A DNA stretch of 64,000 nucleotides. Source: Escherichia coli. Its GTDB lineage: Bacteria; Pseudomonadota; Gammaproteobacteria; Enterobacterales; Enterobacteriaceae. A model generated the notes under the pieces. That model worked only from the letters and a program-made list of their open reading frames with translations, made no database searches and was not told the DNA's origin. Position numbers and translations under genes: made by a program. Shown one piece after another: positions 6,912 through 44,805 of this stretch. Within the stretch, counting starts at the first letter, position 1. Every line of letters starts with the position of its first letter. The stretch is taken from assembly GCF_024502345.1 (NCBI RefSeq), contig NZ_JALDNN010000001.1, one strand, 5' to 3'.

Positions 6912-8153
6912 ATGAAATGGTTTAACACTTTAAGTCACAACCGTTGGCTGGAACAGGAAACCGATCGCATCTTTGATTTTGGTAAAAATTCCGTAGTACC
7001 GACCGGATTTGGCTGGTTAGGCAATAAAGGGCAAATCAAAGAAGAGATGGGCACCCATCTGTGGATCACAGCTCGTATGTTGCACGTTTATTCCGTTGCT
7101 GCGGCGATGGGTCGACCTGGCGCTTACTCGTTGGTTGATCACGGTATTAAAGCCATGAACGGCGCACTGCGCGATAAAAAATATGGCGGCTGGTATGCCT
7201 GTGTGAATGACGAGGGCGTGGTGGATGCCTCCAAACAGGGCTATCAACATTTCTTTGCTCTGCTGGGTGCTGCCAGCGCCGTCACTACCGGTCATCCGGA
7301 AGCGCGCAAGCTGCTCGATTACACCATTGAAATTATCGAGAAATACTTCTGGAGCGAAGAAGAGCAGATGTGCCTGGAGTCCTGGGACGAAGCCTTCAGC
7401 AAAACCGAAGAGTACCGCGGCGGCAATGCCAATATGCACGCAGTGGAAGCTTTCTTAATTGTTTATGACGTAACGCATGACAAAAAATGGCTGGATCGCG
7501 CGATTCGCGTGGCTTCCGTGATTATCCACGACGTCGCAAGAAATAATCATTATCGCGTTAACGAACACTTCGATACCCAGTGGAATCCGCTGCCGGATTA
7601 CAACAAAGATAACCCGGCGCACCGCTTCCGCGCGTTCGGAGGTACACCAGGCCACTGGATCGAATGGGGCCGTTTAATGCTGCACATCCACGCGGCCCTG
7701 GAAGCCCGTTGCGAACAACCGCCAGCATGGTTGCTAGAAGATGCCAAAGGTCTGTTTAACGCCACCGTGCGTGATGCCTGGGCACCCGATGGTGCGGACG
7801 GGATTGTTTATACCGTTGACTGGGAAGGAAAACCGGTGGTCCGCGAACGTGTGCGTTGGCCTATCGTCGAAGCGATAGGTACGGCCTACGCGCTCTACAC
7901 CGTCACCGGCGATCGCCAGTATGAAACCTGGTATCAGACATGGTGGGACTACTGCATTAAGTACCTGATGGACTATGAAAATGGTTCCTGGTGGCAGGAG
8001 CTGGATGCGGACAATAAAGTCACCACGAAAGTCTGGGACGGCAAACAGGATATTTATCACCTGCTGCATTGCCTGGTGATCCCGCGTATCCCGTTAGCGC
8101 CAGGCCTGGCTCCGGCAGTTGCGGCGGGTCTGCTGGATATTAACGCGAAATAA
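6912..8153 (+). CDS. yihS: Sulfoquinovose isomerase (N-acylglucosamine 2-epimerase fold)
   Basis: 413-aa ORF; matches YihS. Confidence 0.95.
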
Positions 8154-8333
8154 CTGACTAAAAAAAAACGACATATCAGGCTGCACGCCGGGTATGTCGT
8201 TATTCAATAAAGGTACCTCGTATGCAAATCACCAACATGCATTGCAGTGGACAGACCGTTTCACTTGCCGCGGGGGATTATCACGCGACCATTGTGACCG
8301 TCGGTGCAGGTCTGGCTGAATTAACCTTTCAGG

Positions 8334-9554
8334 TGTAGATTCAATTGGTCAACGCAACAGTTATGTGAAAACATGGGGTTGCGGAGGTTTTTTGAATGAG
8401 ACGAACATTTACAGCAGAGGAAAAAGCCTCTGTTTTTGAACTATGGAAGAACGGAACAGGCTTCAGTGAAATAGCGAATATCCTGGGTTCAAAACCCGGA
8501 ACGATCTTCACTATGTTAAGGGATACTGGCGGCATAAAACCCCATGAGCGTAAGCGGGCTGTAGCTCACCTGACACTGTCTGAGCGCGAGGAGATACGAG
8601 CTGGTTTGTCAGCCAAAATGAGCATTCGTGCGATAGCTACTGCGCTGAATCGCAGTCCTTCGACGATCTCACGTGAAGTTCAGCGTAATCGGGGCAGACG
8701 CTATTACAAAGCTGTTGATGCTAATAACCGAGCCAACAGAATGGCGAAAAGGCCAAAACCGTGCTTACTGGATCAAAATTTACCATTGCGAAAGCTTGTT
8801 CTGGAAAAGCTGGAGATGAAATGGTCTCCAGAGCAAATATCAGGATGGTTAAGGCGAACAAAACCACGTCAAAAAACGCTGCGAATATCACCTGAGACAA
8901 TTTATAAAACGCTGTACTTTCGTAGCCGTGAAGCGCTACACCACCTGAATATACAGCATCTGCGACGGTCGCATAGCCTTCGCCATGGCAGGCGTCATAC
9001 CCGCAAAGGCGAAAGAGGTACGATTAACATAGTGAACGGAACACCAATTCACGAACGTTCCCGAAATATCGATAACAGACGCTCTCTGGGGCATTGGGAG
9101 GGCGATTTAGTCTCAGGTACAAAAAACTCTCATATAGCCACACTTGTAGACCGAAAATCACGTTATACGATCATCCTTAGACTCAGGGGCAAAGATTCTG
9201 TCTCAGTAAATCAGGCTCTTACCGACAAATTCCTGAGTTTACCGTCAGAACTCAGAAAATCACTGACATGGGACAGAGGAATGGAACTGGCCAGACATCT
9301 AGAATTTACTGTCAGCACCGGCGTTAAAGTTTACTTCTGCGATCCTCAGAGTCCTTGGCAGCGGGGAACAAATGAGAACACAAATGGGCTAATTCGGCAG
9401 TACTTTCCTAAAAAGACATGTCTTGCCCAATATACTCAACATGAACTAGATCTGGTTGCTGCTCAGCTAAACAACAGACCGAGAAAGACACTGAAGTTCA
9501 AAACACCGAAAGAGATAATTGAAAGGGGTGTTGCATTGACAGATTGAATCTACA
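8334..9554 (+). mobile_element. Insertion sequence IS30, complete 1221-bp copy, flanked by 2-bp target-site duplication GG
   Basis: Left end TGTAGATTCAATTGGTCAACGCAACAGTTATGTG..., right end ...TTGACAGATTGAATCTACA (terminal inverted repeats); length 1221 bp; GG at 8332-8333 and 9555-9556; encodes a 383-aa transposase. Confidence 0.95.
8396..9547 (+). CDS. insI: IS30 transposase (DDE family)
   Basis: 383-aa ORF MRRTFTAEEKASVFELWKNGTGF... with N-terminal HTH and C-terminal DDE domain; recognised as the IS30 transposase. Confidence 0.95.
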   Translation: MRRTFTAEEKASVFELWKNGTGFSEIANILGSKPGTIFTMLRDTGGIKPHERKRAVAHLTLSEREEIRAGLSAKMSIRAIATALNRSPSTISREVQRNRGRRYYKAVDANNRANRMAKRPKPCLLDQNLPLRKLVLEKLEMKWSPEQISGWLRRTKPRQKTLRISPETIYKTLYFRSREALHHLNIQHLRRSHSLRHGRRHTRKGERGTINIVNGTPIHERSRNIDNRRSLGHWEGDLVSGTKNSHIATLVDRKSRYTIILRLRGKDSVSVNQALTDKFLSLPSELRKSLTWDRGMELARHLEFTVSTGVKVYFCDPQSPWQRGTNENTNGLIRQYFPKKTCLAQYTQHELDLVAAQLNNRPRKTLKFKTPKEIIERGVALTD

Positions 9555-10407
9555 GGGCTGTCATTTAGTTATTCCACATAAACCCGAAGAGATGCCGCTG
9601 GCACATCTGGGCAAAGTCCTTATTCCGTGGCCGAACCGGATCGCCAACGGCTGTTATCGCTATCAGGGGCAGGAATATCAGTTACCCATTAATGAACATG
9701 GTTCAAAAGCCGCTATTCATGGGCTGCTCGCCTGGCGTGACTGGCAAATCAGCGAATTAACCGCCACCAGCGTTACCCTGACAGCTTTTCTGCCACCCAG
9801 TTACGGCTATCCGTTTATGCTGGCTTCGCAGGTTGTTTATTCGCTCAATGCACGCACGGGTCTTTCCGTTGAGATCGCAAGTCAGAATATTGGTACTGTG
9901 ACCGCACCCTATGGTGTGGGTATTCATCCTTATTTAACCTGCAACTTAACATCTGTTGATGAATATCTGTTCCAGCTTCCGGCAAACCAGGTTTATGCCG
10001 TCGATGAGCACGCTAATCCGACAACGCTTCACCACGTTGATGAGCTGGATTTAAATTTCACGCAGGCGAAAAAAATAGCCGCGACAAAAATCGACCACAC
10101 CTTTAAAACCGCTAATGATCTGTGGGAAATAACCATTACCCATCCACAACAGGCGCTTTCGGTAAGCCTTTGTTCCGATCAACCCTGGGTGCAGATTTAT
10201 AGCGGCGAAAAATTACAGCGTCAGGGACTGGCAGTTGAACCTATGAGTTGCCCACCTAACGCCTTTAATTCAGGTCTCGACTTATTATTACTGGAACCAG
10301 GGAAAACGCACCGCCTGTTTTTTAATATTTACGGGCAGCACAATTAATTTTATTAAGAAAAGAACGAGATCATTGTTTAGGGTTGTATTTACACAACAGG
10401 AAATATC

Positions 10408-11283
10408 ATGGACTTTTTTACGTTATTTTCACCGGATGGGGTCATGCTGGAAACAAACGTGGTATGTATCGTTATCGCGTTAATGTTTCTTTATACCTTT
10501 GTGGGGATATGCGCGGGATTTGGCGGTGGTTTAACCACCATGCCGCTCGTCACGTTAATGCTCCCCGTAAAAATGGCAACTCCGCTCTCGGTGATTGTCG
10601 GCACCGCGACCGCCTTGTACGCCACCTGGCTGTCACGTAAAGAAACGGATTGGCGATCGGCAATGGTACTGATTATTTTCTCGTTTCTGGGAATACCCGT
10701 CGGTTTATATGCGCTGTCATATTTACCCGACCATTTTATGAAAGTGGGCTTAGGCGGATTCCTTATCCTGTACTCCTTTTACAGTATGTTTATTCCACGC
10801 CTGCCGATTTATGACCGCAACTGGATCGCCGCACCTATCGGCGCTGTGGCAGGAGCGTTAGGGGCAGCGTTTTCAACCAACGGACCGCCGATGGTTATCT
10901 ACGGTATGCTGCGTAACTTAGGCCCGGCGGCATTTCGTGGCACTCTGAACGCTTTCTTCACCGCAAACAACATCGCGGTGATCGGCGGGCTGGCGACCAG
11001 CGGAATTTTGACTGTTTCTATCTTTAAACTGGTGCTGTTTTGTATTCCCACCATGATCCTCGGTTCACTGGTTGGACAATATGTGCATAAACGCATTTCA
11101 GTCAAAGTGTTCCGTGTGATGGTCTTTTTGTTGCTGATTGCCTCCGGTTCTATGTTGATAAAAGGCGCGCTGGGAATTCCCGCTGCTGCCGCGCTTCTGC
11201 CTCCTTTTACCTTGTTAGTTATACTGCAACTGGCATTTGGTAAAAAAGTGGCGGCAATCCGCCGGGCTGAAGAAAGTAAATAA
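10408..11283 (+). CDS. TauE/SafE (TSUP, DUF81) family anion permease; putative sulfite or organosulfonate exporter
   Basis: 291-aa polytopic membrane protein with the family hallmark glycine motif (GICAGFGGGLTTMPL) and a second repeat (GAVAGALGAAFSTNGPP); AGGAAA SD 6 nt before the ATG; host-like GC and codon usage. Sits between yihR and yihQ. Confidence 0.8.
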   Translation: MDFFTLFSPDGVMLETNVVCIVIALMFLYTFVGICAGFGGGLTTMPLVTLMLPVKMATPLSVIVGTATALYATWLSRKETDWRSAMVLIIFSFLGIPVGLYALSYLPDHFMKVGLGGFLILYSFYSMFIPRLPIYDRNWIAAPIGAVAGALGAAFSTNGPPMVIYGMLRNLGPAAFRGTLNAFFTANNIAVIGGLATSGILTVSIFKLVLFCIPTMILGSLVGQYVHKRISVKVFRVMVFLLLIASGSMLIKGALGIPAAAALLPPFTLLVILQLAFGKKVAAIRRAEESK

Positions 11284-11391
11284 TCACTTATGCGGGTTTT
11301 AATTTATACCAGCACCACATTCTTTAATTAATGAAACCTGTAACAACAGGATGGCATGAAATATTAGCTTTATACTCTATGGAGATTATTT

Positions 11392-13424
11392 ATGGATACG
11401 CCACGCCCACAATTACCAGATTTTCAGTTTCATCAGAATAACGACAGTTTTACCCTACATTTTCAACAGCGTCTTATTTTAACCCATAGCAAAGATAATC
11501 CTTGTTTATGGATTGGTTCAGGTATTGCGGATATCGATATGTTCCGCGGCAATTTCAGCATTAAAGATAAACTACAGGAGAAAATTGCGCTTACCGACGC
11601 CATCGTCAGCCAGTCGCCGGATGGTTGGTTAATCCATTTCAGCCGTGGTTCTGACATTAGCGCCACGCTGAATATCTCTGCCGACGATCAGGGCCGTTTA
11701 TTGCTGGAACTACAAAACGACAACCTTAACCACAACCGTATCTGGCTGCGCCTTGCCGCTCAACCAGAGGACCATATCTACGGCTGCGGCGAACAGTTTT
11801 CCTACTTCGATCTGCGTGGCAAACCGTTCCCGCTATGGACCAGTGAACAAGGCGTTGGTCGCAATAAACAAACCTATGTCACCTGGCAGGCCGACTGCAA
11901 AGAAAATGCGGGCGGCGACTATTACTGGACTTTCTTCCCACAGCCTACGTTTGTCAGCACGCAGAAGTATTACTGCCATGTTGATAACAGTTGCTATATG
12001 AACTTCGACTTTAGTGCCCCGGAATACCATGAACTGGCGCTGTGGGAAGACAAAGCAACGCTGCGTTTTGAATGTGCTGACACATACATCTCCCTGCTGG
12101 AAAAATTAACCGCCCTGCTGGGACGCCAGCCAGAACTGCCCGACTGGATTTATGACGGAGTAACGCTCGGCATTCAGGGCGGGACGGAAGTGTGCCAGAA
12201 GAAACTGGACACCATGCGTAACGCGGGCGTGAAGGTCAACGGCATCTGGGCGCAGGACTGGTCCGGTATTCGTATGACCTCTTTTGGCAAACGCGTGATG
12301 TGGAACTGGAAGTGGAACAGCGAAAACTACCCGCAACTGGATTCGCGTATCAAGCAGTGGAACAAAGAGGGCGTGCAGTTCCTTGCCTATATCAACCCGT
12401 ATGTTGCCAGTGATAAAGATCTCTGCGAAGAGGCGGCAAAGCGCGGTTATCTGGCAAAAGATGTCGCCGGTGGCGACTATCTGGTGGAGTTTGGCGAGTT
12501 CTACGGCGGCGTTGTCGATCTCACCAATCCGGAAGCCTACGCCTGGTTCAAGGAAGTTATCAAAAAGAACATGATTGAACTCGGCTGCGGCGGCTGGATG
12601 GCTGACTTCGGCGAGTATCTGCCCACCGACACGTACCTGCATAACGGCATCAGCGCGGAAATTATGCATAACGCCTGGCCCGCGCTGTGGGCGAAATGTA
12701 ACTACGAAGCCTTGAAGAAACGGGCAAGCTCGGCGAGATCCTCTTCTTTATGCGCGCCGGTTCTACCGGTAGCCAGAAATACTCCACCATGATGTGGGCG
12801 GGTGACCAGAACGTGGACTGGAGTCTGGACGATGGCCTGGCGTCGGTTGTCCCGGCGGCGCTATCTCTGGCAATGACCGGACATGGCCTGCATCACAGCG
12901 ACATTGGCGGTTATACCACCCTGTTTGAGATGAAGCGCAGCAAAGAGCTGCTGCGCTGGTGCGATTTCAGCGCCTTCACGCCGATGATGCGCACCCACGA
13001 AGGTAACCGTCCTGGCGACAACTGGCAGTTTGACGGCGACGCGGAAACCATCGCCCATTTCGCCCGTATGACCACCGTCTTCACCACCCTGAAACCTTAC
13101 CTGAAAGAGGCCGTCGCGCTGAATGCGAAGTCCGGCCTGCCGGTTATGCGCCCGCTGTTCCTGCATTACGAAGACGACGCGCAGACCTATTCCCTGAAAT
13201 ATCAGTACCTGTTAGGTCGCGACATTCTGATTGCTCCGGTACACGAAGAAGGTCGCAGCGACTGGACGCTCTATCTGCCAGAGGATAACTGGGTCCACGC
13301 CTGGACCGGAGAAACCTTCCACGGTGGAGAAATAACTGTTGAAGCGCCCATCGGCAAGCCGCCGGTCTTTTATCGCGCCGACAGCGAATGGGCTGCACTG
13401 TTCGCCTCGTTAAAAAACATCTAA
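11392..13424 (+). pseudogene. yihQ: Sulfoquinovosidase (GH31) gene with a -1 frameshift
   Basis: Two overlapping ORFs (11392-12792 and 12750-13424) in different frames both match YihQ. Frame 1 reads ...CNYEAL through 12712-12714; frame 2 reads EETGKLGEILFFMRAGS from 12714. Continuity needs GCC TTG GAA GAA where the sequence has GCC TTG AAG AAA, i.e. one G missing at 12714/12715. Confidence 0.8.
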
Positions 13425-13469: not shown

Positions 13470-14855
13470 ATGAGTCACATCACAACGGAAGATCCGGCAA
13501 CTTTGCGCCTGCCCTTTAAAGAGAAACTCTCTTACGGTATCGGCGATCTGGCCTCTAACATCCTGCTGGATATTGGTACGCTTTATCTTTTGAAGTTTTA
13601 TACCGACGTTCTGGGGCTACCTGGCACCTATGGCGGCATTATCTTTTTGATCTCGAAATTCTTTACCGCCTTTACCGATATGGGAACCGGCATCATGTTG
13701 GATTCCCGGCGTAAGATTGGCCCGAAAGGTAAGTTCCGCCCTTTCATTTTGTACGCGTCATTCCCGGTCACCTTATTGGCAATCGCTAACTTTATCGGCA
13801 CACCGTTCGATGTCACTGGTAAAACGGTGATGGCCACTATTCTATTTATGCTCTACGGGCTGTTTTTCAGCATGATGAACTGCTCCTACGGCGCAATGGT
13901 TCCCGCCATTACCAAAAACCCCAACGAACGCGCATCGCTGGCGGCATGGCGTCAGGGTGGTGCTACATTGGGCCTGCTGCTGTGTACGGTGGGATTCGTG
14001 CCGGTGATGAACCTTATCGAAGGTAATCCGCAACTGAGCTACGTTTTCGCCGCCACGCTATTTTCACTGTTCGGCCTGCTGTTTATGTGGATCTGCTACT
14101 CGGGCGTGAAAGAGCGTTATGTCGAAACCCAACCTGCTAATCAGGCGCAAAAGCCAGGCTTGCTGCAATCTTTCCGCGCAATTGCCGGTAACCGCCCACT
14201 GTTCATTCTGTGTATTGCCAACCTCTGCACCTTAGGGGCGTTTAACGTCAAGCTCGCCATTCAGGTCTATTACACCCAGTACGTGCTTAACGATCCCATC
14301 CTGTTGTCGTATATGGGATTTTTTAGCATGGGCTGTATTTTCATCGGCGTGTTCCTGATGCCTGGCGCAGTTAGACGTTTTGGTAAGAAGAAGGTCTATA
14401 TCGGCGGCCTGCTGATTTGGGTGCTTGGCGATCTGCTCAACTATTTCTTCGGCGGCGGCTCGGTCAGTTTTGTGGCGTTCTCCTGCCTGGCATTCTTTGG
14501 CTCGGCGTTTGTTAACAGCCTGAACTGGGCGCTGGTTTCCGACACCGTCGAGTACGGCGAGTGGCGCACCGGTGTCCGTTCTGAAGGGACGGTCTACACC
14601 GGCTTCACCTTCTTTCGCAAAGTGTCTCAGGCGCTGGCTGGTTTCTTCCCCGGCTGGATGCTGACGCAAATCGGCTATGTGCCGAACGTGGCGCAGGCTG
14701 ACCACACCATTGAAGGGTTGCGCCAGCTGATCTTCATCTACCCAAGCGCACTGGCGGTAGTCACCATTGTGGCGATGGGTTGCTTCTACAGTCTGAACGA
14801 GAAGATGTACGTCCGCATTGTTGAAGAAATAGAAGCCCGTAAACGCACGGCGTAA
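13470..14855 (+). CDS. yihP: GPH-family (glycoside-pentoside-hexuronide:cation symporter) transporter
   Basis: Start set at ATG 13470 (MSHITTEDPATLRL...) preceded by GGAG; 461 aa; paralogous to the adjacent yihO. Confidence 0.9.
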   Translation: MSHITTEDPATLRLPFKEKLSYGIGDLASNILLDIGTLYLLKFYTDVLGLPGTYGGIIFLISKFFTAFTDMGTGIMLDSRRKIGPKGKFRPFILYASFPVTLLAIANFIGTPFDVTGKTVMATILFMLYGLFFSMMNCSYGAMVPAITKNPNERASLAAWRQGGATLGLLLCTVGFVPVMNLIEGNPQLSYVFAATLFSLFGLLFMWICYSGVKERYVETQPANQAQKPGLLQSFRAIAGNRPLFILCIANLCTLGAFNVKLAIQVYYTQYVLNDPILLSYMGFFSMGCIFIGVFLMPGAVRRFGKKKVYIGGLLIWVLGDLLNYFFGGGSVSFVAFSCLAFFGSAFVNSLNWALVSDTVEYGEWRTGVRSEGTVYTGFTFFRKVSQALAGFFPGWMLTQIGYVPNVAQADHTIEGLRQLIFIYPSALAVVTIVAMGCFYSLNEKMYVRIVEEIEARKRTA

Positions 14856-14894: not shown

Positions 14895-16298
14895 ATGTCT
14901 GACCATAATCCACTGACATTAAAACTGAATCTGCGGGAAAAAATCGCCTATGGTATGGGCGACGTTGGTTCGAATTTAATGCTTAGCATCGGTACTCTGT
15001 ATCTCCTCAAATTTTATACCGATGAATTAGGGATGCCAGCTTACTATGGCGGGATTATCTTTCTGGTGGCGAAGTTTTTTACCGCGTTTACCGATATGCT
15101 CACCGGATTTTTACTCGACTCGCGGAAAAATATTGGGCCTAAAGGCAAATTTCGTCCCTTTATTTTATATGCAGCGGTTCCGGCGGCGTTAATTGCAACG
15201 CTCCAGTTTATCGCCACCACTTTTAGTTTGCCGGTTAAAACGACGATTGCCACGGCGCTGTTTATGATGTTTGGGCTTTCATACAGTCTGATGAACTGCT
15301 CGTATGGCGCGATGATCCCGGCAATTACCAAAAACCCGAATGAGCGCGCGCAGCTCGCTGCTTACCGCCAGGGTGGTGCAACCATAGGGCTATTGATTTG
15401 TACCGTGGCGTTTATTCCGTTGCAGTCGCTTTTTTCTGACTCAACCGTCGGTTATGCCTGTGCGGCACTTATGTTCTCCATTGGCGGCTTTATTTTTATG
15501 ATGCTGTGCTACAGAGGCGTCAAAGAGCATTATGTGGACACAGCGCCAACCGGACATAAAGCCAGTATTCTCAAATCATTTTGCGCGATATTTCGGAATC
15601 CGCCATTGCTGGTTTTATGCATTGCTAACTTGTGTACCCTGGCGGCATTTAATATCAAACTGGCGATTCAGGTCTATTACACCCAGTATGTGCTGCATGA
15701 TATTAATTTATTGTCGTGGATGGGATTCTTCAGTATGGGATGCATCCTCATCGGCGTATTACTGGTGCCATTAACTGTAAAATGTTTTGGTAAAAAACAG
15801 GTTTATTTAGCTGGCATGGTGCTATGGGCGGTTGGTGATATCCTGAATTATTTCTGGGGAAGTAACTCTTTCACTTTCGTCATGTTCTCTTGTGTCGCCT
15901 TTTTTGGCACGGCCTTTGTAAACAGCCTGAACTGGGCGCTGGTACCAGATACCGTAGATTACGGTGAATGGAAAACCGGTATTCGTGCCGAAGGTTCTGT
16001 TTATACCGGTTATACCTTCTTTCGTAAAATTTCTGCCGCACTTGCTGGCTTCTTGCCAGGCATTATGCTGACGCAAATCGGTTATGTTCCCAACATCGCG
16101 CAAAGTGATGCGACATTACAGGGTTTGCGTCAGCTCATTTTTATCTGGCCTTGTGCACTGGCAATTATTGCTGCATTGACGATGGGATTCTTTTACACAC
16201 TCAATGAAAAACGGTTTGCGTTGATTATTGAGGAAATCAACCAACGCAAAAATAAAGAAATTGAGACAGAAGAAAAAACGGCTTCCGTAACGTTATAA
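14895..16298 (+). CDS. yihO: GPH-family transporter (sulfoquinovose / SQ-glycerol importer)
   Basis: Start set at ATG 14895 (MSDHNPLTLKL...) with AAGGAG 5 nt upstream; 467 aa. Confidence 0.9.
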   Translation: MSDHNPLTLKLNLREKIAYGMGDVGSNLMLSIGTLYLLKFYTDELGMPAYYGGIIFLVAKFFTAFTDMLTGFLLDSRKNIGPKGKFRPFILYAAVPAALIATLQFIATTFSLPVKTTIATALFMMFGLSYSLMNCSYGAMIPAITKNPNERAQLAAYRQGGATIGLLICTVAFIPLQSLFSDSTVGYACAALMFSIGGFIFMMLCYRGVKEHYVDTAPTGHKASILKSFCAIFRNPPLLVLCIANLCTLAAFNIKLAIQVYYTQYVLHDINLLSWMGFFSMGCILIGVLLVPLTVKCFGKKQVYLAGMVLWAVGDILNYFWGSNSFTFVMFSCVAFFGTAFVNSLNWALVPDTVDYGEWKTGIRAEGSVYTGYTFFRKISAALAGFLPGIMLTQIGYVPNIAQSDATLQGLRQLIFIWPCALAIIAALTMGFFYTLNEKRFALIIEEINQRKNKEIETEEKTASVTL

Positions 16299-29159: not shown

Positions 29160-29227
29160 AATGGTTCGTCTTTTAGCCGTTTTATTCAGTATAGATTTGC
29201 GGCGGAATCTAACAGAAAGCAAGCAAA

Positions 29228-29470
29228 GAAAAAAGGCGACAGATTACTCTGTCGCCTTTTTTCCTGACTCATAACCCTTAACGGGTCTTACAATCCTTGC
29301 AGGCCGCCAACACACCCTGTTTTTCCATTAGCCGGAACAATCCGTGTTGATTCCATTTCCGTTTAATTACGTCTCCGGACGTTTGTCTTCCTGACAATCC
29401 TCTGTCTTCGCCTCCTGGCGCTCCTGACCCTCATCCTGAGTCATTGTTCCTGTTAGCGTCCTCGCTCTAT
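29228..29470 (-). ncRNA. csrC: CsrC sRNA (CsrA-sequestering)
   Basis: Minus-strand transcript beginning ATAGAGCGAGGACGCTAACAGGAACAATGACTCAGGATGAGGGTCAGGAGCGCCAGGAGG... with more than a dozen GGA triplets, ending in hairpin GGCGACAGAGTAATCTGTCGCC plus U-run. Lies in the yihI-engB intergenic region; sequence recognised as CsrC. Confidence 0.85.
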
Positions 29471-30498: not shown

Positions 30499-30607
30499 TA
30501 AAAAACGCCCCAGTCATTACTGACTGGGGCGGCTAAAATATTCAGCCAAATCCGATTACGTGAAGTAAAAGGTCTGAAAGATAGAACATCTTACCTCTGT
30601 ACCCTAC
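30499..30607 (-). ncRNA. spf: Spot 42 sRNA
   Basis: Minus-strand 109-nt sequence GTAGGGTACAGAGGTAAGATGTTCTATCTTTCAGACCTTTTACTTCACGTAATCGGATTTGGCTGAATATTTTAGCCGCCCCAGTCAGTAATGACTGGGGCGTTTTTTA, ending in a terminator hairpin plus U-run; recognised as Spot 42. Confidence 0.92.
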
Positions 30608-30754
30608 GCGACTAACTTTACTCTTTTTTGTTCAGTTCAGAAAGCACTTTTTGTAATTTTTTTTCAGTTGTTGCATAGGAATTTCTAATAGCCATCACAA
30701 AACGTGACAGCTTATGTTGCTTACTTACGAAAAAAGGGCATGTTCAGGCGAATC

Positions 30755-39702: not shown

Positions 39703-39822
39703 ATGCCTGGCAGTTCCCTACTCTCGCATGGGGAGACCCCACACTACCATCGGCGCTACGGCGTTTCACTTCTGAGTTCGGCATGGGGTCAGGTGGGACC
39801 ACCGCGCTACGGCCGCCAGGCA
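39703..39822 (-). rRNA. rrfA: 5S ribosomal RNA
   Basis: 120-nt reverse complement matches the E. coli 5S sequence (TGCCTGGCGGCCGTAGCGCGGTGGTCCCACCTGACC...CTGCCAGGCAT). Confidence 0.95.
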
Positions 39823-39914
39823 AATTCTGTTTTATCAGACCGCTTCTGCGTTCTGATTTAATCTGTATCAGGCTGAAAATCTTCTCTCATCCGCCAAAAC
39901 ATCTTCGGCGTTGT

Positions 39915-42817
<2,903 letters not shown>

Positions 42818-43000
42818 TCACAACCCGAAGATGTTTCTTGCGATCCATCATCGTGTTGCGAAAATTTGAGAGACTCACGAACAACTTTCGTTGTTCAGTG
42901 TTTCAATTTTCAGCTTGATCCAGATTTTTAAAGAGCAAAACTTCGCAGTGAACCTTTTCAGGTACACTCTGAAGTATTTTTTATTTAATCACTACAGAGA

Positions 43001-43076
43001 TGGTGGAGCTATGCGGGATCGAACCGCAGACCTCCTGCGTGCAAAGCAGGCGCTCTCCCAGCTGAGCTATAGCCCC
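43001..43076 (-). tRNA. alaT: tRNA-Ala (UGC), 16S-23S spacer tRNA
   Basis: Reverse complement GGGGCTATAGCTCAGCTGGGAGAGCGCCTGCTTTGCACGCAGGAGGTCTGCGGTTCGATCCCGCATAGCTCCACCA. Confidence 0.95.
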
Positions 43077-43118
43077 ATAACATGTAGTTAAAACCTCTTC
43101 AAATTTGCCGTGCAAATT

Positions 43119-43195
<77 letters not shown>

Positions 43196-43263
43196 GTAGA
43201 GGTTTTACTGCTCATTTTCATCAGACAATCTGTGTGAGCACTGCAAAGAACGCTTCTTTAAGG

Positions 43264-44805
<1,542 letters not shown>

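What the first reader, a model, noticed from the sequence alone, without database searches (positions are those of the whole stretch)
9529..9570. Outward-facing -35 hexamer in the IS30 right end could form a hybrid promoter for the downstream sulfoquinovose genes
The IS30 right inverted repeat carries TTGACA at 9536-9541, pointing out of the element toward the yihR remainder, the TauE-like gene, yihQ, yihP and yihO. IS30 termini are known to contribute -35 boxes to hybrid promoters. The flanking DNA about 17 bp downstream (TGTCAT / CATTTA around 9559-9566) is only a weak -10, so any such promoter would be modest, but it could partly relieve polarity or make downstream expression independent of CsqR.
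Basis: inference. Interest (0 to 1): 0.4.

Follow-up and report, generated by a model that had tools for sequence, protein, structure and literature searches.

The report
IS30 end forms possible hybrid promoter
A standard IS30 mobile element sits inside the sugar gene yihR, and the promoter half it carries at its right tip lines up with a mediocre second half in the neighbouring DNA; this is a long-known side effect of IS30, it could weakly switch on the genes downstream, and nothing here has been measured.

Summary
A canonical 1221-bp IS30 (8334-9554, + strand) interrupts yihR at codon 38, with a 2-bp GG target duplication. Its 26-bp right inverted repeat (9529-9554) holds a perfect TTGACA at 9536-9541, facing outward and ending 13 bp from the tip. 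Exactly 17 bp downstream lies TGTCAT (9559-9564). That is 4 of 6 matches to TATAAT: T at -7 is present, but -11 is G instead of the key A.

The tool's strict consensus scan calls no promoter there. Three graded models do. They place the junction equal to, or about 2-fold below, IS30's own circle/dimer junction promoter (TTGACA-17-TAGATT), and about 3-fold below a full consensus. The predicted start is near 9571.

Two of the four -10 matches are T's that IS30's target preference puts there anyway, as 35 natural flanks show.

The mechanism has been known since 1987, so this is one more instance of it. Activity is predicted, not shown. The practical effect is doubtful: yihR is destroyed, yihQ carries a lineage-wide frameshift, and read-through from the transposase promoter is an alternative source of transcripts. 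The same junction occurs in several draft assemblies but in none of 5,426 complete E. coli genomes. Interest is low.

The parts
8334..9554 (+). Complete IS30 element (1221 bp)
   Evidence: 100% identical over its full length to IS30 copies annotated in many E. coli genomes. The ends were read directly. It is the only copy in the window.
8334..8359 (+). IS30 left inverted repeat (IRL). It holds TAGATT (8336-8341), the -10 half of the circle/dimer junction promoter.
   Evidence: Inverted-repeat pair I1, 26 nt, 88% complementary. In-silico IRR+2 bp+IRL junction gives TTGACA-17-TAGATT.
9529..9554 (+). IS30 right inverted repeat (IRR)
8396..9547 (+). IS30 transposase gene insI (383 aa). Its stop codon TGA at 9545-9547 lies inside the IRR.
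   Evidence: ORF list. Pfam HTH_38 (1.6e-23) and rve (4.1e-14). RefSeq annotation of identical copies.
9536..9541 (+). Outward-facing consensus -35 hexamer TTGACA
   Evidence: Read directly. It is the -35 of the Pjunc model. Pjunc is described as strong in PMC9333248.
9542..9558 (+). 17-bp spacer: 13 bp of IS30 end, the 2-bp target duplication, and 2 bp of yihR
9559..9564 (+). Candidate -10 hexamer TGTCAT in yihR DNA (4/6; G at -11, T at -7)
   Evidence: La Fleur parameters rank it 559/4096 (tri-nt model) or 210/4096 (mono-nt model).
9571..9571 (+). Predicted transcription start (A), 7 nt after the -10. This is inferred, not observed.
   Evidence: Register of the RNAP energy matrix, which covers -41 to -1.
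8332..8333 (.). Target-site duplication GG, left copy
   Evidence: Removing 8334-9556 restores a colinear yihR, 99.2% identical to E. coli L73.
9555..9556 (.). Target-site duplication GG, right copy
8222..8338 (+). yihR 5' fragment: 38 codons, then TAG 8336-8338 supplied by the IS30 tip
   Evidence: Sequence read. yihR annotation in the IS-free relative L73.
9556..10347 (+). yihR 3' remainder. The ORF is open from TTG 9544 inside the IRR. Gene callers start it at ATG 9592 (251 aa).
   Evidence: ORF 9544-10347. Pfam Aldose_epim matches profile positions 50-296 only. Called genes in draft contigs.
10408..11283 (+). TauE/SafE-family gene, the first intact gene downstream
   Evidence: Pfam TauE 4.7e-35. 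Annotation in L73.
11392..13424 (+). yihQ (sulfoquinovosidase), broken into 466-aa and 224-aa ORFs by a 1-bp deletion near 12709
   Evidence: ORFs. Alignment gap against L73. The same 466-aa product occurs on contigs in 49 blocks of the assembly collection.
13470..14855 (+). yihP (MFS transporter)
   Evidence: ORF. Colinear with annotated L73.
14895..16298 (+). yihO (MFS transporter)
   Evidence: ORF. Colinear with annotated L73.
8413..8434 (+). Hairpin followed by a U-run inside insI codons 6-13. It is a candidate attenuator or terminator for transcripts entering or starting at the left end.
   Evidence: dG -11.1 kcal/mol, z -3.4. Own relaxed scan.
8353..8383 (+). Hairpin just upstream of the insI ribosome-binding site (GGAGG), followed by U6
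   Evidence: dG -13.8 kcal/mol, z -2.7.

Best explanation
This is an ordinary IS30 insertion. As a by-product, it places the element's built-in outward -35 next to host DNA that happens to resemble a -10.

The TTGACA in the right inverted repeat exists to serve IS30 itself. When the two ends are joined in the transposition circle or dimer, it pairs at 17 bp with TAGATT in the left end. Together they make a strong promoter (Pjunc) for the transposase.

In the chromosome the same hexamer is 17 bp from TGTCAT in yihR. This gives a sigma-70 hybrid site, TTGACA-N17-TGTCAT. I expect weak-to-moderate constitutive transcription from about 9571, running through the truncated yihR into tauE, yihQ (frameshifted), yihP, yihO and ompL, independent of the CsqR-controlled yihU promoter.

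[quoted passage not shown] What is inferred: that RNA polymerase starts there, and that transcripts reach the downstream genes. The event looks incidental rather than selected.
For: Anatomy:
- Canonical IS30 with 26-bp IRs, a 383-aa HTH_38+rve transposase and a 2-bp duplication.
- The in-silico IRR+2 bp+IRL junction gives TTGACA-17-TAGATT. Pjunc is described as strong, citing Dalrymple 1987 (PMC9333248).
- IS30 is listed among the IS elements that form fusion promoters from an IRR -35 (PMC9330008; PMC11894529; PMC9783932).

Kinney/Brewster RNAP energy matrix (it reproduces the published WT -5.35 and UV5 -6.99 kT):
- Hybrid -6.77 kT, equal to my Pjunc model at -6.77.
- The native yihR sequence in the same register scores -5.11.
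- Only 30 of 127,918 window positions score as well.

La Fleur et al. -10 parameters, trained on all 4,096 -10 hexamers behind TTGACA with a 17-bp spacer:
- TGTCAT is 3.0-3.3-fold below TATAAT and 1.8-1.9-fold below TAGATT.
- It falls in the top 5-14% of hexamers.

Other support:
- Rough PWM: the best + strand site between 8.1 and 16.3 kb.
- Positive control. The recurrent IS30 insertion 118-119 bp upstream of mdfA in drug-selection experiments (PMC9783932) reconstructs to TTGACA-17-TATACT at -7.86 kT, if the right end faces mdfA.
- No convincing intrinsic terminator lies between 9571 and tauE.
Against: - The -10 lacks A at -11. From my own knowledge of sigma-70 structural and mutational work, this is the base most critical for strand opening. 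The tool's consensus scan therefore calls nothing.
- No register at 16-18 bp offers an A at position 2.
- The graded models are extrapolated. The energy matrix comes from lac variants with an 18-bp spacer, and I removed one neutral spacer row. It is also permissive: 661 window sites score at least as well as wild-type lac.
- The La Fleur parameters come from in vitro transcription with a compressed 12-24-fold range.
- The directly measured TGTCAT row was not in the stored part of their table.
- Two of the four -10 matches are explained by IS30 target preference.
- Transposase bound to the IRR could occlude the -35 (inference).
- There are no transcription data of any kind.
Confidence: 0.55

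Rival explanations
1. Silent junction. Without A at -11 the hybrid site does not open, so no significant initiation occurs. Any RNA over tauE-yihQ-yihP-yihO comes from read-through of transcripts that start at the IS30 transposase promoter or upstream in the yih operon, or from native internal promoters.
For: - The strict scan finds no promoter at the junction.
- The insI reading frame runs to 7 bp from the IS tip, with no terminator-like structure at the right end. Transposase transcripts must therefore exit into yihR.
- A transposase-promoter candidate (TTGGTC-18-AAACAT, 8345-8374) scores -6.68 kT, as good as the hybrid.
- A candidate native site with -10 TATACT (11371-11376) lies just before yihQ.
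- K-12 has an RNAP-binding promoter in the yihS/yihR spacer, and yihR/yihQ are reported as transcribed independently (PMC5816610).
Against: - Three graded models put the junction at or near Pjunc strength.
- Hairpins followed by U-runs at 8353-8383 and 8413-8434 may stop much of the transcription that enters or starts at the left end.
- The trp promoter (TTGACA-17-TTAACT) is a classical active promoter without A at the second -10 position (own knowledge). TTAACT and TGTCAT have similar La Fleur parameters.
Confidence: 0.35
2. Selected regulatory rewiring. The insertion was retained because the hybrid promoter gives CsqR-independent, constitutive expression of the TauE exporter and the YihP/YihO/OmpL transport genes.
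For: - The same junction is present in at least four independent assemblies: GCA_050023715.1, GCA_050029375.1, GCA_050022275.1 and ENA ERZ27263756. It is therefore inherited within a lineage.
- tauE, yihP, yihO and ompL are intact in the window.
- The junction is among the better natural IS30 flanks.
Against: - Inheritance in a clone needs no selection.
- yihR is destroyed and yihQ is frameshifted in the same lineage. The cluster is also hit by other IS elements and indels elsewhere, which looks like decay.
- The insertion site fits IS30's target preference.
- The junction is absent from 5,426 complete E. coli genomes.
Confidence: 0.07
3. A different register is used. TG at 9559-9560 acts as an extended -10 motif for CATTTA (9562-9567), largely independent of the -35.
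For: TGnCATTTA has the TGn spacing and an A at position 2 of the hexamer.
Against: - CATTTA matches TATAAT at only 2/6 and lacks T at -7.
- The spacer to TTGACA would be 20 bp.
- The 18-bp register scores only -3.58 kT.
Confidence: 0.03

Closest known systems
IS30 junction promoter Pjunc (IRR-IRL joint of the IS30 circle or (IS30)2 dimer; Dalrymple 1987, as cited in PMC9333248)
   Same: It uses the identical -35 hexamer (TTGACA in the IRR), the identical first 13 bp of spacer and the same 17-bp spacing.
   Different: The -10 here is host DNA (TGTCAT, no A at -11) instead of TAGATT from the IRL. It would drive host genes, not the transposase. There is no IR-IR joint in the window.
IS30 insertion 118-119 bp upstream of mdfA in E. 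coli K-12 evolution experiments (PMC9783932, which also cites Tirumalai 2019)
   Same: The IS30 end is placed next to host DNA, and the flank begins nnGCT in both cases. Reconstruction gives a hybrid at exactly 17 bp.
   Different: At mdfA the flank hexamer is TATACT (5/6, with A at -11), scoring -7.86 kT. That insertion arose repeatedly under drug selection. Its orientation is not stated in the text I could read, so the reconstruction is conditional. At yihR the hexamer is poorer and no selection is evident.
ISAba125 (IS30 family) hybrid promoters for blaNDM-1 and aph(3')-VI (PMC9330008)
   Same: An IS30-family end supplies the -35 and the host or passenger DNA supplies the -10.
   Different: It is a different element, with a weaker -35 (TTGAAT) and experimentally measured effects on resistance genes.
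Fusion promoters from IRR -35 boxes of IS1, IS2, IS5, IS6, IS21, IS256 and IS982 (reviewed in PMC9330008 and PMC11894529)
   Same: The same general mechanism and the same requirement for a correctly spaced -10 in the flank.
   Different: They belong to other IS families. Most documented cases sit upstream of an intact gene rather than inside an operon gene.
IS30 activation of an smp'-lacZ fusion (Neuwald & Stauffer 1990, cited in PMC9783932)
   Same: Reported activation of a downstream gene by an IS30 insertion.
   Different: I could not read the paper, so the junction sequence is unknown to me.

Membership tests
IS30 (insertion sequence, IS30 family) | Length of about 1221 bp, identical to reference copies | tested here: met
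   8334-9554 is 1221 bp and 100% identical to annotated IS30 copies in E. coli.
IS30 (insertion sequence, IS30 family) | 26-bp imperfect terminal inverted repeats | tested here: met
   8334-8359 pairs with 9529-9554, 26 nt, 88% complementary.
IS30 (insertion sequence, IS30 family) | Single long ORF encoding a DDE transposase with an N-terminal HTH | tested here: met
   383-aa ORF with Pfam HTH_38 and rve above their cut-offs.
IS30 (insertion sequence, IS30 family) | 2-bp target-site duplication | tested here: met
   GG on both sides. Excising the element and one GG restores yihR colinear with strain L73. The 2-bp duplication is stated in PMC9333248.
IS-derived hybrid (fusion) sigma-70 promoter | Outward-facing -35 hexamer inside the terminal inverted repeat | tested here: met
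   TTGACA 9536-9541, 13 bp from the tip.
IS-derived hybrid (fusion) sigma-70 promoter | Functional -10 hexamer in the flank at 16-18 bp | tested here: inconclusive
   TGTCAT lies at exactly 17 bp: 4/6 matches, T at -7 present, A at -11 absent. It is rejected by the strict scan but scored as moderate by three graded models.
IS-derived hybrid (fusion) sigma-70 promoter | Transcription start about 7 nt downstream of the -10 | not testable with these tools
   Predicted at 9571 only. There are no RNA data.
IS-derived hybrid (fusion) sigma-70 promoter | Raised or deregulated expression of the downstream gene | not testable with these tools
   No expression data. The downstream genes are a truncated yihR, tauE, a frameshifted yihQ, yihP and yihO.
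IS30 Pjunc (junction promoter of the transposition intermediate) | IRR abutting IRL with a 2-bp spacer | tested here: not met
   The window holds a single IS30 copy with its ends 1169 bp apart, and no IR-IR joint. The site shares Pjunc's -35 but is not Pjunc.

The most novel reading that the evidence does not exclude
The IS30 right end acts as a portable constitutive promoter half, and here it has uncoupled tauE-yihP-yihO-ompL from CsqR. A lineage that has lost sulfoquinovosidase and mutarotase would then still express a sulfonate exporter and transporters constitutively. More generally, IS30's target preference (T at flank positions 7, 10 and 11, A at 13) would systematically place T-rich, -10-like sequence opposite its consensus -35, making outward transcription a regular property of IS30 insertions.
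Probability: 0.08. Interest if true: 0.4.

Novelty: new member of a known kind. Interest (0 to 1): 0.17.

Why it matters
If the junction is active, a lineage-fixed IS30 would turn part of the sulfoquinovose cluster (tauE, yihP, yihO, ompL) from sugar-induced to low-level constitutive expression. That would be a small, concrete example of an IS element rewiring an operon from within. It also bears on genome annotation: an IS30 insertion should not automatically be read as fully polar, because every copy carries a consensus -35 13 bp from its right tip. Beyond that the finding adds nothing new in principle. The mechanism has been textbook knowledge for IS30 since the 1980s, and the operon concerned appears to be decaying.

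Tried and rejected
- Looked for the junction in 5,426 complete E. coli genomes. There were none. The best complete genome is only 99.1% identical over 24 kb, so the source lineage is not in that set.
- Scanned GTDB species representatives for the IS30 right end. The single hit was an unrelated flank on a contig labelled as a Collinsella MAG.
- Tried to name the source organism through the protein cluster of the frameshifted YihQ fragment.
- Tried to read the primary IS30 papers (Dalrymple & Arber 1985, PMC554561; Dalrymple et al. 1984, PMC557656) and Tirumalai 2019 (PMC6336426). None is held. Statements about Pjunc strength and IS30 terminators therefore rest on secondary citations or on my memory.
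- Searched for the published IS30 hot-spot consensus and found nothing usable. I derived a consensus from 35 natural flanks instead.
- Looked for the directly measured TTGACA-17-TGTCAT construct in La Fleur et al. Supplementary Data 1. The stored file is cut before the -10 series, so I used their fitted 3-mer and mono-nt parameters.
- Considered a read-through terminator formed by TGACAG (IRR) pairing with CTGTCA (flank). Its dG is -7.7 kcal/mol with z -0.28, no better than shuffles, so I rejected it.
- Considered an alternative complete outward promoter inside the IS30 3' end (TTGAAA 9519-9524). No acceptable -10 follows it.
Full report
**1. What is in the sequence**

Positions 8334-9554 are a complete IS30. 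The element is 1221 bp and 100% identical to IS30 copies annotated in many E. coli genomes. It has 26-bp imperfect inverted repeats at 8334-8359 and 9529-9554. Its single 383-aa ORF (8396-9547) carries Pfam HTH_38 and rve domains.

It sits in yihR in the same orientation as the yihU-T-S-R-(tauE)-Q-P-O-ompL genes. The left flank ends in CAGG and the right flank starts with GGGC. Deleting the element plus one GG restores a sequence colinear with, and 99.2% identical to, the intact locus of E. coli L73. The target duplication is therefore the 2 bp expected for IS30 (PMC9333248). Only one IS30 copy is in the window.

**2. The observation**

TTGACA is at 9536-9541 on the + strand, inside the right inverted repeat. 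It faces outward and its last base is 13 bp from the tip. With a 17-bp spacer the flank hexamer is TGTCAT (9559-9564). It matches TATAAT at positions 1, 3, 5 and 6 and has G instead of A at position 2 (-11). Registers at 16 bp (CTGTCA) and 18 bp (GTCATT) are worse. CATTTA (9562-9567) would need a 20-bp spacer.

**3. Is it more than chance?**

The -35 is a fixed feature of IS30, not a chance hexamer. The -10 resemblance is only modestly unusual. When the IS30 end is placed at every position of the window, 7-10% of sites give an equal or better -10 at 16-18 bp.

I collected natural IS30 right-end junctions from metagenome contigs and E. coli genomes. That gave 49 distinct flanks, or 35 after collapsing near-duplicates. 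They show a target preference: G at flank position 4, C at 5, T at 7, T at 10 (30 of 35), T at 11 (29 of 35) and A at 13. The yihR flank, GGGCTGTCATTTAG, has T7, T10, T11 and A13. The mirror-image left flank has G4, T10, T11 and A13 (read).

Flank positions 7 and 10 are hexamer positions 3 and 6. Half of the apparent -10 match is therefore what IS30's own target choice delivers. Among the 35 natural junctions, the yihR one ranks 7th by a rough PWM and 3rd by the RNAP energy matrix.

**4. What the -35 is for**

Joining the right end to the left end with a 2-bp spacer, as in the IS30 circle or (IS30)2 dimer, gives TTGACA-17-TAGATT. The literature calls this junction promoter (Pjunc) strong and says it drives transposase from ORF-A (PMC9333248, citing Dalrymple 1987). 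Reviews list IS30 among the elements whose IRR -35 can form fusion promoters with a suitably spaced host -10 (PMC9330008; PMC11894529). PMC9783932 states that this was shown experimentally for IS30.

So the hexamer's primary role is in the element's own life cycle. A hybrid promoter at a chromosomal junction is a by-product.

**5. How strong would this junction be?**

The four methods do not agree.

- *Strict consensus scan.* The tool's scan requires A at -10 position 2. It reports nothing at the junction and nothing on the + strand of 8000-11500.
- *Rough additive PWM.* The base frequencies come from my memory of promoter compilations, so this is approximate. It gives 10.2 bits, against 13.4 for Pjunc. 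That is the best + strand site between 8.1 and 16.3 kb, and only 7 positions in the window reach it.
- *Kinney/Brewster RNAP energy matrix.* I copied it from Text S2 of PMC3521663 and checked it by reproducing the published energies (lac WT -5.35 kT, lacUV5 -6.99 kT). It gives -6.77 kT for the junction, the same as my Pjunc model. The native yihR sequence scores -5.11 in the same register, and the junction with A at -11 would score -8.23. Thirty of 127,918 window positions score as well.
- *La Fleur et al. 2022 parameters.* They measured all 4,096 -10 hexamers behind TTGACA with a 17-bp spacer, which is exactly this architecture. Their fitted parameters put TGTCAT at -0.49 (tri-nt model) or -1.02 (mono-nt model). 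TATAAT is at -1.69 or -2.14, and TAGATT at -1.12 or -1.60. TGTCAT is thus about 3-fold below consensus and about 1.9-fold below the Pjunc -10. It ranks 559th or 210th of 4,096.

There are caveats. The energy matrix derives from lac variants with an 18-bp spacer, and I dropped one near-neutral spacer row. It is also permissive. The La Fleur parameters come from in vitro transcription with only a 12-24-fold range across all -10 hexamers. Neither model captures how badly loss of the -11 A can impair strand opening in vivo (own knowledge). The measured TGTCAT row itself was not in the stored part of the table.

**6. A calibration case**

PMC9783932 reports IS30 inserted 119 bp upstream of mdfA in two replicate drug-evolution lines. 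It also cites an insertion at -118 in an independent chloramphenicol experiment. I placed the IS30 right end at that position in the K-12 sequence. The result is TTGACA-17-TATACT at -7.86 kT, against -4.49 for the native sequence. This holds if the right end faces mdfA; the orientation is not stated in the text I could read.

That is what a selected IS30 hybrid looks like: the flank supplies a 5/6 hexamer with A at -11. The yihR junction is about 1.1 kT (3-fold) weaker in both models.

**7. Surroundings and rival transcript sources**

The interrupted yihR reading frame stops at TAG 8336-8338, supplied by the IS tip. Two hairpins followed by U-runs lie near the left end of IS30. One is at 8353-8383 (-13.8 kcal/mol), just before the insI ribosome-binding site. 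The other is at 8413-8434 (-11.1 kcal/mol, z -3.4), inside insI codons 6-13. They may limit transcription that enters from yihS/yihR or starts at the transposase promoter candidate (TTGGTC-18-AAACAT, -6.68 kT).

Past them, no terminator-like structure occurs before the right tip, and insI ends 7 bp from it. Transposase transcripts that get through must therefore run into the yihR remainder.

A strong hairpin between yihS and yihR (8167-8201, -19.9 kcal/mol, z -7) has only a poor U-tract on the + strand.

In K-12, all long-cassette genes rise by log2FC of 5 or more on sulfoquinovose, while CsqR sites are known only at yihU/V and yihV/W (PMC12608037). An RNAP-binding promoter has been reported in the yihS/R spacer (PMC5816610). 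A candidate native site with -10 TATACT (11371-11376) precedes yihQ.

**8. Biological consequence**

The first reading frame after the junction is a yihR fragment lacking the N-terminal 37-57 residues. Pfam Aldose_epim matches only from profile position 50, and gene callers start it at ATG 9592. yihQ has a 1-bp deletion near 12709 that splits it into 466-aa and 224-aa ORFs, plus a 3-bp in-frame deletion near 12947.

The frameshifted product occurs on contigs in 49 blocks of the assembly collection. Four contigs (three NCBI isolate assemblies and one ENA metagenome) carry the identical IS30-yihR junction and break inside the IS30 end, as short-read assemblies do at repeats. The insertion and the frameshift are thus inherited in a lineage.

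That lineage is absent from 5,426 complete E. coli RefSeq genomes, and the closest complete genome is 99.1% identical. Other strains carry IS1 between yihR and tauE. The picture is one of a dispensable, decaying cluster, not of a selected promoter. tauE, yihP, yihO and ompL remain intact in the window.

**9. Verdict**

My estimates are:

- about 0.55 that a detectable start exists near 9571;
- about 0.35 that the junction is effectively silent and read-through dominates;
- under 0.1 that the event was selected.

It is a new instance of a known kind and of low interest.

Noticed in passing
window 12709 and about 12947 (yihQ, 11392-13424): yihQ (sulfoquinovosidase) has a 1-bp deletion (GAAGCCCTTG becomes GAAGCCTTG) that splits it into 466-aa and 224-aa ORFs, plus a 3-bp in-frame deletion. 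The 466-aa product is found on contigs in 49 blocks of the assembly collection, so this is a real lineage trait and not an assembly error. No complete RefSeq E. coli genome has it.
   Followed up: partly
window 9544-9547: The transposase stop codon TGA (9545-9547) overlaps a TTG (9544-9546) that is in frame with the yihR remainder (ATTGA; ORF 9544-10347, 267 aa). Termination-reinitiation could in principle make an N-terminally truncated YihR. No Shine-Dalgarno sequence lies at a useful distance.
   Followed up: no
window 8347-8352, minus strand: The left inverted repeat also carries an outward-facing -35-like hexamer (TTGACC, 5/6), 13 bp from the left tip. Seventeen bp on lies AAAGGT (A at -11 and T at -7, but 2/6 overall). 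The energy matrix gives -4.75 to -5.31 kT. Any activity would be antisense to the yihR 5' fragment and yihS.
   Followed up: partly
window 8353-8383 and 8413-8434: Two hairpins followed by U-runs lie at the IS30 left end. One is just before the insI ribosome-binding site and one is inside codons 6-13 (-13.8 and -11.1 kcal/mol). They are candidates for blocking or attenuating incoming and transposase transcription. I recall a 1986 paper on IS30 terminators but could not read it.
   Followed up: partly
window 8167-8201: A very stable hairpin sits between yihS and yihR (-19.9 kcal/mol, z -7), flanked by A9 upstream and UUAUU downstream. It looks like a terminator that is better on the minus strand than on the plus strand, yet no minus-strand gene ends there.
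   Followed up: no
Loci L010-L134 (IS30 right-end flanks): 35 independent natural IS30 right flanks give a target preference: G at position 4, C at 5, T at 7, TT at 10-11 and A at 13, counted from the IS tip. Several very similar T-rich flanks (GTAGCCTTTTTTAATAT..., GCGGCTTTTTTTAATAT...) recur, suggesting a repeated hot-spot sequence family in gut bacteria.
   Followed up: partly
L009 1-109; hits H31/H32 (strains PK8277, PK8217): Other strains have an IS1 inserted between yihR and the tauE-like gene, at the window equivalent of about 10360. L009 shares the exact 466-aa YihQ fragment although it is only 99.0% identical to the window overall. The yih cluster seems to be a repeated target of IS insertion and decay.
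   Followed up: partly
L006 (yihP) and L008 (yihO): In two metagenome scaffolds of the same yihQ-frameshift type, yihP is split into 185-aa and 282-aa ORFs (L006) and about 220 bp of yihO is missing or replaced (L008). These may be further decay or scaffold and assembly artefacts.
   Followed up: no
window 11348-11376: A candidate native promoter lies just upstream of yihQ (-10 TATACT at 11371-11376, energy matrix -6.60 kT) in the tauE-yihQ spacer. K-12 lacks this spacer because it has no tauE-like gene there.
   Followed up: no
L010 (JAIJJM010000048.1, labelled as a Collinsella sp. MAG): A contig binned as Collinsella starts with the exact E. coli IS30 right end. This is probably a binning contaminant or a horizontally spread IS30 copy. 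It was the only exact 30-mer hit among the GTDB species representatives.
   Followed up: no
window 9555-34000: The best complete RefSeq E. coli genome is only 99.1% identical over 24 kb. The window therefore comes from a lineage not represented among 5,426 complete E. coli genomes. It could be a Shigella-type or otherwise unsampled lineage; I could not determine the organism.
   Followed up: partly
window 39705-44805 (minus strand); 29217-29470; 30499-30617: Ordinary features: an rRNA operon with two spacer tRNAs, and the CsrC and Spot 42 sRNA genes. All lie in the expected enterobacterial context (glnALG, polA, typA).
   Followed up: no
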